Source: a phage. From it: a stretch of DNA of 64,000 bases. Under the pieces are notes generated by a model. That model was not told the DNA's origin. It saw only the letters and a list, made by a program, of their open reading frames with translations, and did not search any database. Location of the stretch: the sequence record PZ171032.1; one strand, given 5' to 3'. Of the stretch, positions 51,317 to 55,077 are shown piece by piece (position 1 is the stretch's first letter; each line of letters starts with the position of its first letter). The translations under genes and the position numbers were made by a program.

Positions 51317-53653
51317 TTACCAAAGGTCGGTAGACATGAAGTTGATATCTTTATTGTTCTCCCACTCCAGTTTTGCATCAAATATTTTGTTAAACTCACC
51401 CTCATCTATTGAAATCGTGATTTTCCCATCACTGATTTCTAAAGGTAACATTTCCATAGTTCTTAATTGAGAAGCAAAACCAGGGCCACCTGGTAACGGA
51501 AGAGTCCCGCCCGGCAAGGTGTCCAAAGGATTAACAAACCCGTTACCTCCTGATATGATATCTTTGCGAATCATATCGCTGATAGTATCCAGCTGCTGAT
51601 TTCTTTCACTCAACGGGTTGTAACGGTCATTAAACAATTCCCCGGCGCTTAGTATTGTACCGATAATGCCTAACTTACCGAGCAGACCAACTTTGCCACC
51701 AGGTGTCTTGAGGCCACCTCCCCCCTTTCCTGCCGGAGCGCCACCACCAGATCCTTCTGTAGTAGCGGCACCCGCTGCTCCAGCTGCACCCCTTAGAGAG
51801 TTAAGGAATTTAAAGGTTTTTACAAGCATGGATGCCATGACAAAACCTTTTGTAAGGGCGTTCACTACCAGCATGATGGCAGCAGCAAACCCTGCCCATT
51901 TAGCATAGCTAAAGGTGTCATGAAGCTCTTCAGAATATTCCTTCGTCTTGGCTGTTATGAATCCCCATTTAATCCCCCATTCAAGGAAAAACATGCGGAT
52001 CTTGACTATAGTGTTGTTTAGTTCACCAACTACCCAGTTAAGGCCTCTCACAAATCCACTAACAAAATCACCAGAGGCATCCCACACAAATTGCAGAGTC
52101 TCGCCAGTGCGGATTAGTGTATAATAGAACTCTGTCAGTTCGTCAGACCAACGGGTGAACAGTTTCTGACGAGTCAGTTCGATGAAGGTTTTCAGTCTGT
52201 TTTCTGCCAGCACGTTAGACTTCTGCATTCTTTCATAGCCAGCTGCAGATGCCTCGTTCATGTACTTAGCCACATACTTCATGATCTTGGCTGTTTTAAC
52301 CTCACCTTTCTTCATCATGTCCATGAACTGATCCATGGATAGTTCAGAAAGACCAAAAGCCTCTTTAGTGGCCTTGATAAAAGGTTCGTATGCACCCGGC
52401 AATGCTTCAGCAAGTTGTTGCTTCAGTTCTTCGGACATTACTTGTCCTTTCCCAAGCATCTGTTGGATTGCCATAATACCGCGCTGGTATTTTACCTCAT
52501 CAGCACCATAAGCAGCAGCATACTGGGAGTATGCAGAAAACAGCTCATGCACTTCCTGATTTGTCATCTGGTTTTTGGCGTTTACCGACATCTGGGCGTA
52601 ACCTTGAAGACCAGATTTGAGATCAAAACCAAGACGCATAGCCTCTTGCTGGACAAACGCAACCTCACTGTTGGCTTTGTTTGGATCTCCAGTAACAGCA
52701 GTAAGAGCAGCACTTGCGCCCTCCATCATGTGACCGGATCTGTTAACCGCAGCAAATCCAGAAAAAGCTGTATACGCAGCTGTTGCATTAATAACAGATC
52801 TACGTAAGTCTCTCATGGCATCGCCTAGTGTAAGCGTTTGGCTGGTGGCACTTTTAAATCCAGACTGCAGCGCTGACAGGTGGGCGTTAAAGGTTGACTT
52901 TTTCATTTCCCCGCGAGCAAACCTGGACTCTAACTCTGAGTATCCTGGCAAGCTTCCACGGAATCCTGCCCCATACTTGGCAGAGAGTCTTATCGCAGAG
53001 TTGTAGAGGTGGGTTCTTCTTGCCTCACGATCCGACATAAGCCTATTATCCATACCAGCTTTACTGTCTCTTCTTAGCTGTCTATGATAACGATTCATAG
53101 CGGCTGTCTGGGCTTTCACAAGATTAGGATCTGAAGCCACCCCACCCATGTTCGGGTTGCCTGGAATATATCTGAAAGACTTGGCGTTAGCAAGAACTCT
53201 TGCCTTAGGTGCCTTATAACCCCCATAGGATACTGGTGCAGATTTGGCAGCTTTTTTAGCCTCTTTAGCTTGCTGCTGGTAGAACTTACGCATCCTAGCC
53301 ATCTCTGGGTTTTTGGCGGTAAGATTGCCTACAGCTTGCCTACGTCTTGCATTCTCCCTACGCTCTATTGCAGCCTTTACTGCAGCCTCTTTCTTGGCCT
53401 GAGCAACGCTCTCCCTGTGCAGTTTAGCATTTGCCTGAGATTGCTGTCTGGCAACCCTCTGCATTGTCTGCTGGGTTTTAACAGCTACCGCCTGCCATCT
53501 ACTCATGGGGTTGGCTGAGTTAAAATCCTCGCCCAGTTTCCTGAACTCCCTCCCAATACTGCGAATTTTCTCTACAGCTTTTTTGTAGGAGGAGTTCTCT
53601 ATCTCAAAGCCAATCTTGTTGACTGTTGTGGCAACTATTTTGTTTGTAGCCAT
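51317..53653 (-). CDS. tail tape measure protein
   Basis: 778 aa, Ala/Gln/Lys-rich helical N-terminal half, Gly-rich C-terminal region; position after the frameshifted chaperone pair. Confidence 0.8.
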   Translation of the reverse strand: MATNKIVATTVNKIGFEIENSSYKKAVEKIRSIGREFRKLGEDFNSANPMSRWQAVAVKTQQTMQRVARQQSQANAKLHRESVAQAKKEAAVKAAIERRENARRRQAVGNLTAKNPEMARMRKFYQQQAKEAKKAAKSAPVSYGGYKAPKARVLANAKSFRYIPGNPNMGGVASDPNLVKAQTAAMNRYHRQLRRDSKAGMDNRLMSDREARRTHLYNSAIRLSAKYGAGFRGSLPGYSELESRFARGEMKKSTFNAHLSALQSGFKSATSQTLTLGDAMRDLRRSVINATAAYTAFSGFAAVNRSGHMMEGASAALTAVTGDPNKANSEVAFVQQEAMRLGFDLKSGLQGYAQMSVNAKNQMTNQEVHELFSAYSQYAAAYGADEVKYQRGIMAIQQMLGKGQVMSEELKQQLAEALPGAYEPFIKATKEAFGLSELSMDQFMDMMKKGEVKTAKIMKYVAKYMNEASAAGYERMQKSNVLAENRLKTFIELTRQKLFTRWSDELTEFYYTLIRTGETLQFVWDASGDFVSGFVRGLNWVVGELNNTIVKIRMFFLEWGIKWGFITAKTKEYSEELHDTFSYAKWAGFAAAIMLVVNALTKGFVMASMLVKTFKFLNSLRGAAGAAGAATTEGSGGGAPAGKGGGGLKTPGGKVGLLGKLGIIGTILSAGELFNDRYNPLSERNQQLDTISDMIRKDIISGGNGFVNPLDTLPGGTLPLPGGPGFASQLRTMEMLPLEISDGKITISIDEGEFNKIFDAKLEWENNKDINFMSTDLW

Positions 53654-53707
53654 GGTTTCCTCATAATAAAAAGGGCCAGATCCCAGAAAAGGAATCCGGC
53701 CCTTAGA

Positions 53708-53956
53708 TTATCCTCTCCTGCGCTTAGCTTTCGCAGCAGCTGCGGCAGCCTTCTGCTCCCGCTCCATTTCCCTGTTTTGGACGGTATCTAGGAATTCTTC
53801 GATATCAAGATACTCACAGAGCTTCAGGAAATACGCCATATCTGCAAGATTTAGCGATTCAAAATTTTCCCCTTTGAAATTCTTGAGCACCCTGCACCAA
53901 AGAAAGTCGAACCAGTTGAGTGAACTATTCTTAGCTGCCCACTCACTGGCCCTCAC
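53708..53956 (-). CDS. tail assembly chaperone, frameshift extension segment (T-like part)
   Basis: 82-aa ORF with GTG start, in the -1 frame relative to 53968..54441; that frame is open upstream back to the slippery site. Confidence 0.55.
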   Translation of the reverse strand: MRASEWAAKNSSLNWFDFLWCRVLKNFKGENFESLNLADMAYFLKLCEYLDIEEFLDTVQNREMEREQKAAAAAAKAKRRRG

Positions 53957-53967
53957 AACAACCTTGC

Positions 53968-54441
53968 TTATTCCTGCTCTTCCGGAGTCTGATCCAGGTT
54001 GTTCACCTGCTGAATCATACCCATCTGCTGTAACATCTCCAGAAGGCTTCCTAAACCGTCTTGTGTGAAAAAACAGCCGTAGTTAACCTCCAGAACCTTA
54101 CCTGCCAGCTTAATCATCTCCAGCAGATGCCCTGCAAACACAACATCAGGGTTAAGCTTATCCACACCATCTACGGTAATATCTTCGAACAAGATTTTAA
54201 ATAACTCTTCAATAGAGCTATCATCGAGTTCTTGGAACAGGTAAGCCAGAGCAGTAGGAAGGACCTCTGCCATATTCTGACCACCAGAGATAATAGATCC
54301 ACCGATAGCACCTAGCGGGACAGCCACAATCTTACCGATTTTAGGCATGTTTTTCATTGCTTTCATCGGTCCCCAGTGGGTGATCACGAAGTTGTGCCCT
54401 GCTAAATCAATCTCTGTTGTAGGTCTAAAGTTTATAGCCAT
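53968..54441 (-). CDS. tail assembly chaperone (G-like part)
   Basis: 157 aa, between the tube and tape measure genes; contains an in-frame U UUU UUC slippery heptamer. Confidence 0.65.
   Translation of the reverse strand: MAINFRPTTEIDLAGHNFVITHWGPMKAMKNMPKIGKIVAVPLGAIGGSIISGGQNMAEVLPTALAYLFQELDDSSIEELFKILFEDITVDGVDKLNPDVVFAGHLLEMIKLAGKVLEVNYGCFFTQDGLGSLLEMLQQMGMIQQVNNLDQTPEEQE
54067..54073 (-). other. candidate programmed -1 ribosomal frameshift site
   Basis: Minus-strand heptamer T TTT TTC, phased X XXY YYZ with the 53968..54441 reading frame; the -1 frame is open from here through the 53708..53956 ORF. Confidence 0.5.
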
Positions 54442-54484: not shown

Positions 54485-54513
54485 ATTTTACCATGATTAT
54501 GGTGCATTGTCAA
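54485..54513 (-). promoter_or_regulatory. sigma70-like promoter with extended -10 and overlapping inverted repeat
   Basis: On the minus strand: -35 TTGACA (reverse complement of 54508-54513), 17-bp spacer, TGG-TAAAAT; a 9-bp inverted repeat TGCACCATA / TATGGTGCA (54469-54477 and 54498-54506) straddles the -10 element. Confidence 0.55.
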
Positions 54514-54603: not shown

Positions 54604-55077
54604 TTAGATAATACCTGCAAGACCTGCGAGGCCAGTAAGAGCACCAGTGATGTTATCACGGTTGAGCCATGCATCCAGAATACCGATATCCCAGTCCAGT
54701 TGGCCTACTTCGGTTCCGTAAGTCAGGTCAGGCTGTTTCTGGATCCAACCGATTGTGGAAATACCAGGACCCTGGCTACCTTCCAGCAGAACCGGGAAGA
54801 ATACCAGACCAGTAATCGATGCCTGTTTCTGCCAGTCAGAAAGGTAAGCGTTCCATACAGAAGTGTTCTGCAAAGACACGGTCATAACACCAGATTGGTT
54901 ACGGGACAGAGCTGCAGACATTTCACCATCCACACCAACGTGAGGATAAATGTTGTCTTCGTTTCTTGAAACAACAATCTTGGTGTCAGCAGCGAAGCCA
55001 GTGACACGCTGCTGCATCAGATACAGTTTGACCTTTTTAGGGTCATACGCATAAGGAGTTAAAATTTGAGTTTCCAT
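54604..55077 (-). CDS. tail tube protein
   Basis: 157-aa ORF directly downstream of the sheath-sized gene and upstream of the chaperone/tape-measure unit; followed by a strong terminator. Confidence 0.55.
   Translation of the reverse strand: METQILTPYAYDPKKVKLYLMQQRVTGFAADTKIVVSRNEDNIYPHVGVDGEMSAALSRNQSGVMTVSLQNTSVWNAYLSDWQKQASITGLVFFPVLLEGSQGPGISTIGWIQKQPDLTYGTEVGQLDWDIGILDAWLNRDNITGALTGLAGLAGII

What the first reader, a model, noticed from the sequence alone, without database searches (positions are those of the whole stretch)
53708..54441. Programmed -1 frameshift predicted in the tail assembly chaperone pair
A perfectly phased slippery heptamer U UUU UUC (minus strand, 54073 to 54067) lies about 100 nt before the stop of the 157-aa chaperone ORF. 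The -1 frame is open from there through the downstream 82-aa ORF. This recreates the conserved G/GT-type arrangement between tube and tape-measure genes and independently supports the tail-module assignments.
Basis: partly seen in the sequence, partly recalled or inferred. Interest (0 to 1): 0.4.

Follow-up and report, generated by a model that had tools for sequence, protein, structure and literature searches.

The report
Tail chaperone -1 frameshift, rV5-like phage
This rV5-like coliphage almost certainly makes a long form of its tail assembly chaperone by a ribosome slipping back one base at a conserved UUUUUUC site; the trick is well known in tailed phages, but it is missing from the public annotations of this phage group.

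Summary
On the minus strand, T_TTT_TTC (54073-54067) is phased with the 157-aa ORF 54441-53968, which is a Pfam Phage_TAC_15 tail assembly chaperone. It lies 32 codons before that ORF's stop. The -1 frame is open from 54082 to the stop at 53710-53708. The predicted fusion is 244 aa (27 kDa), against 157 aa (17 kDa) for the short form.

The window is about 99.5% identical to coliphage rV5. The gene order is sheath, tube, chaperone, small ORF, tape measure.

I examined 26 related loci, with chaperone identity down to about 27%. All 26 keep a phased shift-prone motif at the equivalent site, and the -1 frame stays open for 72-97 further codons. The motif itself changes between lineages: U_UUU_UUC, C_CCU_UUU, G_GGA_AAG, A_AAU_UUU, and G_GUU_UUU, where only the U_UUU tetramer fits. 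Synonymous positions of the heptamer codons are invariant. Most relatives checked have no start codon ahead of the conserved C-terminal domain.

I found no conserved downstream RNA structure. A GGAGGT sits 12 nt upstream and is a candidate stimulator.

None of the 22 GenBank records inspected annotates the shift. A 2025 paper proposes the same site for sister families. Verdict: real, ordinary, a new member of the lambda G/GT kind. It has not been tested experimentally.

The parts
54485..54513 (-). Near-consensus sigma-70 promoter (TTGACA-17-TAAAAT, TG extended) ahead of the chaperone gene.
   Evidence: scores it 11 of 12 matches. The rV5 record annotates promoter P51 at the equivalent place.
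53968..54441 (-). Tail assembly chaperone ORF, the 'G'-like short product: 157 aa, 17.2 kDa, pI 4.5.
   Evidence: Pfam PF21822 Phage_TAC_15 E=3.3e-23. phrog_3840 tail assembly chaperone E=6.5e-69. Mass and pI.
54086..54091 (-). GGAGGT, a Shine-Dalgarno-like hexamer 12 nt upstream of the heptamer. It is a candidate 5' stimulator. This is inference only.
   Evidence: An SD-like element of at least 5 nt, 8-13 nt upstream, is present in 13 of 26 loci. It overlaps the conserved Leu-Glu-Val codons.
54067..54073 (-). Slippery heptamer T_TTT_TTC (U_UUU_UUC), phased X_XXY_YYZ. This is the proposed -1 shift site.
   Evidence: Third-position entropy is 0.00 bits across the three heptamer codons in 12 lineages, against 1.44 bits in codons 1-110.
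53968..54082 (-). 115-nt stretch where the zero frame and the -1 frame are both open. The dual-coding part runs from the heptamer to the chaperone stop.
   Evidence: Both the zero-frame tail and the -1-frame RRFRKPSG motif are conserved.
53708..54067 (-). -1-frame extension, the 'T'-like part: 119 codons plus the TAA stop. It consists of HTRRFRKPSG, a Gly/Ser/Pro/Asp-rich linker, the conserved domain KNSSLNWFDFLWCRVLKNFKGE..., and a basic C-terminus. The fusion product is residues 1-125 of the chaperone plus these 119 residues: 244 aa, 27.1 kDa.
   Evidence: phrog_10409 E=8.5e-51 covers the last 82 residues. tblastn aligns from residue 1 in relatives down to about 51% identity.
53708..53956 (-). 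The 82-aa GTG ORF as a gene caller sees it (rV5 gp050 region). I read it as the 3' part of the frameshift product, not as a separate gene.
53671..53704 (-). Intrinsic terminator-like hairpin with a T-run after the -1 ORF and before the tape measure gene.
   Evidence: Annotated as a rho-independent terminator in rV5.
54604..55077 (-). Tail tube gene, the upstream neighbour. A terminator-like hairpin follows it at 54587-54564.
   Evidence: PF11681 E=7e-9. rV5 gp52 was identified as the tube protein by virion mass spectrometry (PMC3606486). Hairpin.
51317..53653 (-). Tape measure protein gene, the downstream neighbour, 778 aa.
   Evidence: PF20155 TMP_3 E=2.4e-18. phrog_5255.

Best explanation
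ORF 54441-53968 encodes the short tail assembly chaperone. A minority of ribosomes translating it pause with tRNA-Phe on UUU (P site) and UUC (A site) of U_UUU_UUC (54073-54067). Both tRNAs slip back one base and re-pair with UUU-UUU. Translation continues in the -1 frame (CAC ACA AGA CGG... = His-Thr-Arg-Arg-Phe-Arg...) to the stop at 53710-53708.

This gives a 244-aa fusion. It shares residues 1-125 with the short form and swaps the short form's 32-residue acidic tail for a flexible linker plus a conserved, basic 'T'-like domain.

By analogy with lambda gpG/gpGT and P2 E/E+E', both products coat the tape measure protein. The rare long form recruits tube subunits so that the tail polymerises to the right length, and neither product stays in the virion.

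What is shown: the sequence anatomy, its conservation, and the homology of the chaperone. What is inferred: that the shift happens, its efficiency, any role of the upstream GGAGGT, and the division of labour between the two domains.
For: (1) Anatomy: the heptamer is phased and the -1 frame is open for 119 codons.

(2) Context: the gene order is sheath, tube, chaperone, small ORF, tape measure, and the chaperone is a curated Pfam TAC family member.

(3) Site conservation: all 26 related loci, from Vequintavirinae, Stephanstirmvirinae, Plateaulakevirus, Barbavirus, Mooglevirus, Nankokuvirus, unclassified phages and five metagenomic contigs, have a phased shift motif inside the -1-open stretch, with 72-97 further open codons.

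(4) Motif turnover: the motif varies while the site stays put. It is U_UUU_UUC in most lineages, C_CCU_UUU in KLEP7, G_GGA_AAG (lambda's own heptamer) in Barba16S, and A_AAU_UUU in Vibrio P018-4. These four belong to the top-efficiency classes H_HHU_UUY and V_VVA_AAR measured in E. coli (PMC4066793).

(5) Synonymous sites: the residue before Phe-Phe changes (Cys TGT, Pro CCT, Ser AGT, Ser TCT) but its codon always ends in T. Third-position entropy is 0.00 bits at the heptamer codons against 1.44 bits in codons 1-110.

(6) The -1 peptide: it is conserved from the first residue after the shift (R-F-R-K-P-S-G). The length-variable Gly/Ser-rich linker never acquires a stop.

(7) No independent start: in 8 of the 13 sequences checked (the window and 12 GenBank relatives), no ATG, GTG or TTG exists in the -1 frame ahead of the conserved domain. 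In two metagenomic relatives and two GenBank records no gene was called there at all.

(8) Homology of the site: the window chaperone aligns with that of Shigella phage Sf16 (E=6e-7), placing LEVNYGCFF over LEANFGSFF. This is the same site proposed as a -1 frameshift site for Andersonviridae and Vandenendeviridae (PMC12846349).

(9) Virion proteome: the rV5 virion mass-spectrometry table contains tube, sheath and tape measure, but no peptide of gp50 or gp51. This is as expected for chaperones.
Against: - There is no protein-level evidence for the 27-kDa product in any member of this clade.
- No conserved downstream stem-loop or pseudoknot was found. Folding z-scores were -1.67 and +1.15, and the consensus structure energy was -0.57 kcal/mol. 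Efficiency may therefore be low, and it is unknown.
- In this genome a GTG (53956) preceded by AAGG could start the 82-aa ORF independently.
- The C-terminal part has no Pfam family, and the 244-aa fusion has no PDB sequence relative. A single-sequence AlphaFold model was uninformative, with pLDDT 37.5.
- Among 73 database homologues no natural in-frame fusion was found that would act as a Rosetta stone.
Confidence: 0.9

Rival explanations
1. There are two independent genes. The 82-aa ORF is translated from its own GTG at 53956. The heptamer is only a by-product of a conserved Cys-Phe-Phe in the chaperone.
For: A GTG with a weak AAGG 5 nt upstream exists in this genome. Public records annotate a separate small ORF.
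Against: Eight of the 13 sequences checked have no start codon before the conserved domain. Candidate starts are not conserved in position and mostly lack Shine-Dalgarno sequences. Conservation of the -1 peptide begins right at the heptamer, 37 codons upstream of the GTG. The synonymous sites of the heptamer are invariant, and the motif is replaced by other slippery heptamers rather than lost.
Confidence: 0.04
2. The same fusion is made by transcriptional slippage: RNA polymerase adds one U in the T6 run. Ribosomal slippage is not involved.
For: The site contains a homopolymeric run of six T. An extra U would put downstream codons in the same -1 frame.
Against: Efficient bacterial transcriptional slippage is described for runs of about nine A or T (PMC5009743). 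Here the run is 6 nt. Relatives use C_CCU_UUU with 5 T, A_AAU_UUU, or G_GGA_AAG with no run at all, always in X_XXY_YYZ phase. Phase conservation has no meaning for a polymerase.
Confidence: 0.04
3. The frame change happens elsewhere in the 115-nt overlap, or by another route such as a single-tRNA P-site slip or -1 at a tetramer further downstream.
For: The overlap is long, 33 codons after the heptamer, so the heptamer is not the only geometrically possible place.
Against: Only one phased heptamer lies in the overlap. The -1 peptide is conserved from the residue immediately after it. In relatives the -1 frame opens only 3-93 nt before the motif: 3-54 nt in the rV5-like and phi92-like loci, and 93 nt in Barba16S.
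Confidence: 0.02

Closest known systems
Lambda gpG/gpGT and the conserved G/GT-type tail assembly chaperone frameshift of long-tailed dsDNA phages (Levin 1993; Xu, Hendrix and Duda 2004, 2013, 2014; summarised in PMC5009743)
   Same: The gene pair sits between the tube (major tail) gene and the tape measure gene. The -1 shift occurs on an X_XXY_YYZ heptamer. The two products share an N-terminal chaperone domain. No downstream RNA structure is evident. One relative (Barba16S) even uses lambda's G_GGA_AAG. The products are not seen in the virion proteome.
   Different: The host phage has a contractile tail. There is no detectable sequence similarity to lambda G or T. The heptamer is U_UUU_UUC. 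The shift site lies 32 codons before the chaperone stop, so the short form has its own conserved 32-residue tail that the long form lacks.
P2 E / E+E' (myovirus tail chaperone, -1 shift on a T-rich heptamer; recalled from Christie et al. 2002, not checked here)
   Same: It is a contractile-tailed phage with a T-run slippery site and the same position upstream of the tape measure gene.
   Different: It belongs to an unrelated protein family. The P2 heptamer ends in G as I recall it. I made no direct comparison.
TAC-N/TAC-NC locus with the 'GTTTTT' motif proposed for Vandenendeviridae (phage Adele) and Andersonviridae (PMC12846349, Dec 2025)
   Same: The chaperone is homologous: the window aligns with Sf16 at E=6e-7, with the Phe-Phe site aligned. 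Sf16 has the same phased T_TTT_TTC, and CHA_P1 has G_GTT_TTT. The window's CTG TTT TTT C contains the GTTTTT motif. In both cases the argument rests on conservation alone.
   Different: The frameshift section of that paper, as read here, covers Vandenendeviridae and Andersonviridae and does not name Vequintavirinae or Stephanstirmvirinae. The C-terminal domains are too diverged for pairwise BLASTP (E=0.44).
E. coli dnaX -1 frameshift cassette (internal Shine-Dalgarno, A_AAA_AAG, stem-loop)
   Same: There is a heptamer, and in this window a GGAGGT lies 12 nt upstream.
   Different: There is no downstream stem-loop. The SD-like element is present in only 13 of 26 relatives and overlaps conserved codons. 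The expected outcome is a minor long product, not a 1:1 ratio.

Membership tests
G/GT-type tail assembly chaperone pair with programmed -1 frameshift | The gene pair lies between the tail tube (major tail) gene and the tape measure gene. | tested here: met
   Tube 55077-54604 (PF11681), chaperone 54441-53968, -1 ORF ending at 53708, tape measure 53653-51317 (PF20155).. The same order holds in all relatives.
G/GT-type tail assembly chaperone pair with programmed -1 frameshift | The upstream ORF is a tail assembly chaperone. | tested here: met
   PF21822 Phage_TAC_15 scores 83 bits against a cut-off of 22 (E=3.3e-23). phrog_3840 E=6.5e-69.
G/GT-type tail assembly chaperone pair with programmed -1 frameshift | The second ORF overlaps the end of the first in the -1 frame and lacks its own conserved initiation signal. 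| tested here: met
   The overlap is 115 nt. No start codon precedes the conserved domain in 8 of the 13 sequences checked. No gene was called there in L016, L018, L020 and L021. This genome itself does have a GTG with a weak AAGG.
G/GT-type tail assembly chaperone pair with programmed -1 frameshift | A phased slippery sequence lies in the overlap and is conserved among relatives. | tested here: met
   T_TTT_TTC at 54073-54067. All 26 relatives have a phased motif, and five motif types occur at the same site. The synonymous sites are invariant.
G/GT-type tail assembly chaperone pair with programmed -1 frameshift | The fusion protein is really made, at a low fixed ratio to the short form. | not testable with these tools
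   This needs a Western blot, mass spectrometry or a reporter assay. No such data were found for rV5-like phages.
G/GT-type tail assembly chaperone pair with programmed -1 frameshift | Both products are needed for tail assembly and are absent from mature virions. | tested here: inconclusive
   The rV5 virion mass-spectrometry table has no peptide of either ORF, while tube, sheath and tape measure were found. Absence in one shotgun data set is weak evidence. Requirement for assembly was not tested.
TAC-N/TAC-NC 'GTTTTT' frameshift locus of Andersonviridae and Vandenendeviridae (PMC12846349) | The chaperone is homologous, with the motif at the aligned position near its 3' end. | tested here: met
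   BLASTP of the window against Sf16 gives E=6e-7, with LEVNYGCFF aligned to LEANFGSFF. Sf16 has phased T_TTT_TTC and CHA_P1 has G_GTT_TTT, each with the -1 frame open for 77-79 further codons.
TAC-N/TAC-NC 'GTTTTT' frameshift locus of Andersonviridae and Vandenendeviridae (PMC12846349) | The C-terminal (-1 frame) domain is homologous. | tested here: inconclusive
   Pairwise BLASTP of the window -1 product against the Sf16 -1 product gives E=0.44. No profile comparison was run.
dnaX/IS-type stimulated -1 frameshift cassette | An internal Shine-Dalgarno-like sequence lies about 10-14 nt upstream of the heptamer (the spacing range is recalled from the dnaX literature, not checked here). | tested here: inconclusive
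   GGAGGT at 54091-54086 has a 12-nt spacer. The chance of GGAGG in such a position is about 0.006 in this window. However, it is present in only 13 of 26 relatives and coincides with conserved Leu-Glu-Val codons.
dnaX/IS-type stimulated -1 frameshift cassette | A stable stem-loop or pseudoknot lies 5-9 nt downstream of the heptamer. | tested here: not met
   The 64-nt fold gives -7.8 kcal/mol with z=+1.15. The 117-nt fold gives z=-1.67. The consensus structure of 7 relatives gives -0.57 kcal/mol.

The most novel reading that the evidence does not exclude
The two isoforms are forked rather than nested. Because the shift occurs 32 codons before the chaperone stop, the abundant short form carries its own conserved acidic tail (...QVNNLDQTPEEQE) and the rare long form replaces it with the basic T-like domain. 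The upstream GGAGGT, found at the right spacing in half of the lineages including very distant ones, would then tune the ratio of the two forms. On this reading, the site is one ancient recoding signal maintained across at least five phage families, with repeated turnover among slippery heptamers. It would be a natural series for studying how frameshift sites evolve.
Probability: 0.25. Interest if true: 0.4.

Novelty: new member of a known kind. Interest (0 to 1): 0.25.

Why it matters
The practical value lies in annotation. The -1 ORF is found in 359 phage records and the chaperone in 491. None of the 22 GenBank records I inspected carries a ribosomal-slippage join. The region is drawn in one of three ways:
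- as a short hypothetical ORF with arbitrary starts;
- as a 122-aa ORF with a CTG start, as in the rV5 reference;
- as an empty 300-nt gap.

Several of these phages (rV5, PVP-SE1, phi92 relatives, Klebsiella and Cronobacter phages) are used or proposed for biocontrol and therapy, so their tail genes are engineered and need to be annotated correctly.

In biological terms it extends a frameshift site already proposed for two sister families to Vequintavirinae, Stephanstirmvirinae and several unclassified groups. It also shows that the site is kept while the heptamer changes. It does not change what is known about tail assembly.

Tried and rejected
- Downstream stimulatory RNA structure: single-sequence folds of 64 and 117 nt and a consensus fold of seven relatives gave nothing above shuffled controls. 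Only Aeromonas phage phiA009 has a strong local hairpin (z=-3.55), and it is lineage-specific.
- Natural in-frame fusions: a search of 5.8 billion proteins with the 244-aa fusion returned 73 homologues. All were 149-159 aa and covered only the chaperone half.
- Structure: AlphaFold2 on the fusion as a single sequence gave pLDDT 37.5, so no fold search was run. phmmer against PDB sequences found nothing at E up to 1.
- Literature: full-text searches for rV5, V5-like or Vequintavirinae together with 'frameshift' found no paper describing this site. The rV5 genome paper contains no mention of frameshift or chaperone.
- Virion proteomics: no gp50 or gp51 peptides appear in the rV5 supplementary mass-spectrometry table. 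This is consistent with the prediction but weak.
- C-terminal domain homology to the Mooglevirus -1 product was not detectable by BLASTP.
- The +1 frame was rejected. It closes 7 codons after the chaperone stop here and within 1-19 codons in relatives.

Full report
**What is in the sequence**

On the minus strand the 157-aa ORF 54441-53968 reads ...GGC TGT TTT TTC ACA CAA GAC.... T_TTT_TTC (54073-54067) is therefore a heptamer in X_XXY_YYZ phase, with zero-frame codons TTT (Phe124) and TTC (Phe125). The ORF stops at 53970-53968, 32 codons later.

In the -1 frame the last upstream stop is TAA at 54085-54083. From 54082 there is no stop until TAA at 53710-53708, and this frame contains the 82-aa GTG ORF 53956-53708. 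The +1 frame closes after 7 codons.

A tandem -1 slip would give residues 1-125 of the ORF followed by HTRRFRKPSG... The total is 244 aa and 27.1 kDa, against 157 aa and 17.2 kDa for the unshifted product.

**Where the window comes from, and the gene context**

The region is 99.4-99.6% identical to Escherichia phage rV5 and about 120 other Vequintavirus records. Family searches give the following assignments:
- 56464-55088 is the tail sheath (DUF3383, phrog_205).
- 55077-54604 is the tail tube (PF11681).
- 54441-53968 is a tail assembly chaperone (PF21822 Phage_TAC_15, E=3.3e-23; phrog_3840, E=6.5e-69).
- 53653-51317 is the tape measure protein (PF20155).

The rV5 proteome paper identified gp52 and gp53 as tube and sheath by mass spectrometry (PMC3606486).

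The chaperone pair looks like its own transcription unit. It has a near-consensus promoter at 54513-54485 and is flanked by terminator-like hairpins at 54587-54564 and 53704-53671 (the promoter and the downstream hairpin are also annotated in rV5).

**Is it more than chance?**

Forty-seven long ORFs of this window contain 18,056 codons.
- Phased heptamers of the classes that are most efficient in E. coli occur 10 times. T_TTT_TTC occurs once, and that one is this site.
- The chance of at least one such heptamer in a 38-codon overlap is 0.02.
- The -1-frame stop density in coding sequence is 0.093 per codon. An open -1 frame of 38 codons has probability 0.024, and one of 119 codons has probability 9e-6.

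**Comparative test**

I collected 26 related loci:
- 21 GenBank phages. Fourteen are classified: rV5 and five further Vequintavirinae, three Stephanstirmvirinae, two Plateaulakevirus, and one each of Barbavirus, Mooglevirus and Nankokuvirus. The other seven records carry no family-level classification.
- Five metagenomic contigs found through a protein search.

Chaperone identity to the window ranges from 100% down to about 27%. In all 26 loci a phased shift motif lies inside the stretch where the -1 frame is open, and that frame continues for 72-97 codons beyond the chaperone stop.

The motif is U_UUU_UUC in 21 loci. In six of these it overlaps C_CCU_UUU. The other five loci are:

| Locus | Motif |
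|---|---|
| KLEP7 | C_CCU_UUU alone |
| Rheinheimera phage Barba16S | G_GGA_AAG, lambda's own heptamer |
| Vibrio phage P018-4 | A_AAU_UUU |
| Nankokuvirus CHA_P1 | G_GUU_UUU, in which only the U_UUU tetramer is canonical |

U_UUU_UUC, C_CCU_UUU, A_AAU_UUU and G_GGA_AAG all belong to the H_HHU_UUY and V_VVA_AAR classes that Sharma et al. measured as the most efficient in E. coli. U_UUU_UUC is also used by IS elements (PMC4066793).

A site that stays in place while one slippery heptamer is exchanged for another is hard to explain except by selection for slippage.

**Synonymous sites and the second frame**

In a codon alignment of 12 Vequintavirinae-like lineages, third-position entropy is as follows:
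- 1.44 bits over codons 1-110;
- 0.00 bits at the three heptamer codons;
- 0.90 bits over the next eight codons.

The residue before Phe-Phe differs between lineages (Cys TGT, Pro CCT, Ser AGT, Ser TCT), but its codon always ends in T.

Immediately after the heptamer the -1 frame encodes a conserved x-R-F-R-K-P-S-G. A Gly/Ser/Pro/Asp-rich linker follows; it varies in length and sequence but never acquires a stop. Next comes a conserved domain (KNSSLxWFDYLWCRxLKxFKGE...LDIEEF), and the product ends in a basic tail.

tblastn with the 119-aa -1 product aligns from residue 1, which is the shift site, in relatives down to about 51% identity. It finds 359 phage records. The zero-frame tail of the short form is also conserved, so the overlap is dual-coding.

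**Can the downstream ORF be made on its own?**

In this genome a GTG at 53956 with a weak AAGG could serve as a start. In 8 of the 13 sequences checked (the window and 12 GenBank relatives), however, no ATG, GTG or TTG exists in the -1 frame ahead of the conserved domain, and the candidate starts that do exist are not conserved. In two metagenomic relatives and two GenBank records the gene callers found nothing between the chaperone and the tape measure gene.

The rV5 reference record draws gp050 as a 122-aa ORF. It begins at a CTG three bases before the heptamer, so it is the whole -1 ORF with an implausible start.

None of the 22 GenBank records inspected carries a join. In Shigella phage Sf16 both ORFs are simply named 'putative tail tape measure chaperone'.

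**Stimulators**

No downstream structure stands out:
- The 64 nt after the heptamer fold at -7.8 kcal/mol (z=+1.15).
- A 117-nt stretch gives z=-1.67.
- The consensus fold of seven relatives gives -0.57 kcal/mol.

[quoted passage not shown] As I recall from Levin et al. 1993, which I did not check here, lambda's site works without a structured stimulator.

GGAGGT lies 12 nt upstream of the heptamer (54091-54086). [quoted passage not shown] An SD-like element of at least 5 nt, 8-13 nt upstream, occurs in 13 of the 26 loci in that tally (which includes the window), among them distant ones such as Sf16 and Vibrio P018-4. It overlaps conserved Leu-Glu-Val codons, so I treat it as a candidate only.

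**Ribosome or polymerase?**

The run is six T. Efficient bacterial transcriptional slippage is described for runs of about nine (PMC5009743). Relatives with G_GGA_AAG, A_AAU_UUU or five T keep the X_XXY_YYZ phase. That argues for tRNA re-pairing.

**Comparison with what is known**

The arrangement is the lambda G/GT type. A short chaperone and a rare -1 frameshift fusion are both encoded between the tube and tape measure genes. The shared part binds the tape measure protein, the extension binds the tube subunit, and neither is present in virions (PMC5009743).

The rV5 virion mass-spectrometry table has no gp50 or gp51 peptides. This fits but is weak evidence.

The closest specific precedent is a December 2025 paper on Pseudomonas phage Adele. 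It argues from conservation alone for a -1 frameshift at a 'GTTTTT' motif in the chaperone genes of Vandenendeviridae and Andersonviridae. Its frameshift section, as read here, does not extend the claim to Vequintavirinae (PMC12846349).

The window's chaperone aligns with that of the Mooglevirus Sf16 (E=6e-7), placing LEVNYGCFF over LEANFGSFF. Sf16 has the same phased T_TTT_TTC. It is therefore the same ancestral site. The C-terminal domains are too diverged for BLASTP.

One difference from lambda is that the shift lies 32 codons before the stop, so the short form has a conserved tail of its own.

**What did not help**

- A search with the fusion found no natural in-frame fusion among 73 homologues.
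- A single-sequence AlphaFold model was uninformative, with pLDDT 37.5.
- PDB sequence search found nothing.
- Literature searches found no description of this site in rV5-like phages.

**Verdict**

I put the probability that a -1 ribosomal frameshift at 54073-54067 produces a 244-aa chaperone isoform at about 0.9. It is a new member of a well-known kind. It is useful for correcting the annotation of several hundred phage genomes, but it would not surprise a specialist. The efficiency of the shift, the role of the upstream GGAGGT and the function of the two alternative C-termini all need experiments.

Noticed in passing
window 54587-53671 (minus strand): The chaperone pair sits between two terminator-like hairpins (54587-54564 and 53704-53671) and has its own near-consensus promoter (54513-54485). 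It therefore looks like a separate transcription unit between the tube and tape measure genes, which could set chaperone dosage independently of them.
   Followed up: partly
L001 3625-3993 (rV5 NC_011041, gp050): The reference rV5 record annotates gp050 as a 122-aa ORF that starts at a CTG three bases before the heptamer and overlaps gp051 by 109 nt. That is the entire -1 ORF with a non-standard start.
   Followed up: yes
GenBank MG0656xx records: About 18-23 records named 'Campylobacter phage' with host Campylobacter jejuni are 99.5% identical to rV5-like or phi92-like coliphages over this region. Some are only 58-87 kb and are unannotated. The host label or the assemblies look doubtful.
   Followed up: no
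L015 1-1397; L011 2132-2770; L027 1-1276 and 7588-8292: The tail module carries inserted genes in some relatives. A gut-metagenome relative has a 512-aa DUF723 protein directly upstream of the chaperone. Barba16S has a reverse-strand DNA-binding protein gene between the -1 ORF and the tape measure gene. Vibrio phage P018-4 has homing endonuclease genes flanking the module.
   Followed up: no
L010 1842-1906 (Aeromonas phage phiA009): A strong hairpin forms over and just after the heptamer (-20.6 kcal/mol, z=-3.55). It is absent from the window and from most relatives, and it may be a lineage-specific frameshift stimulator.
   Followed up: partly
L008 1333-1953 (Pseudaeromonas phage KLEP7): The chaperone is annotated as 206 aa, about 50 residues longer at the N-terminus than in all other relatives, and the tube gene is annotated as shorter. 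The start codons in that record probably need revision.
   Followed up: no
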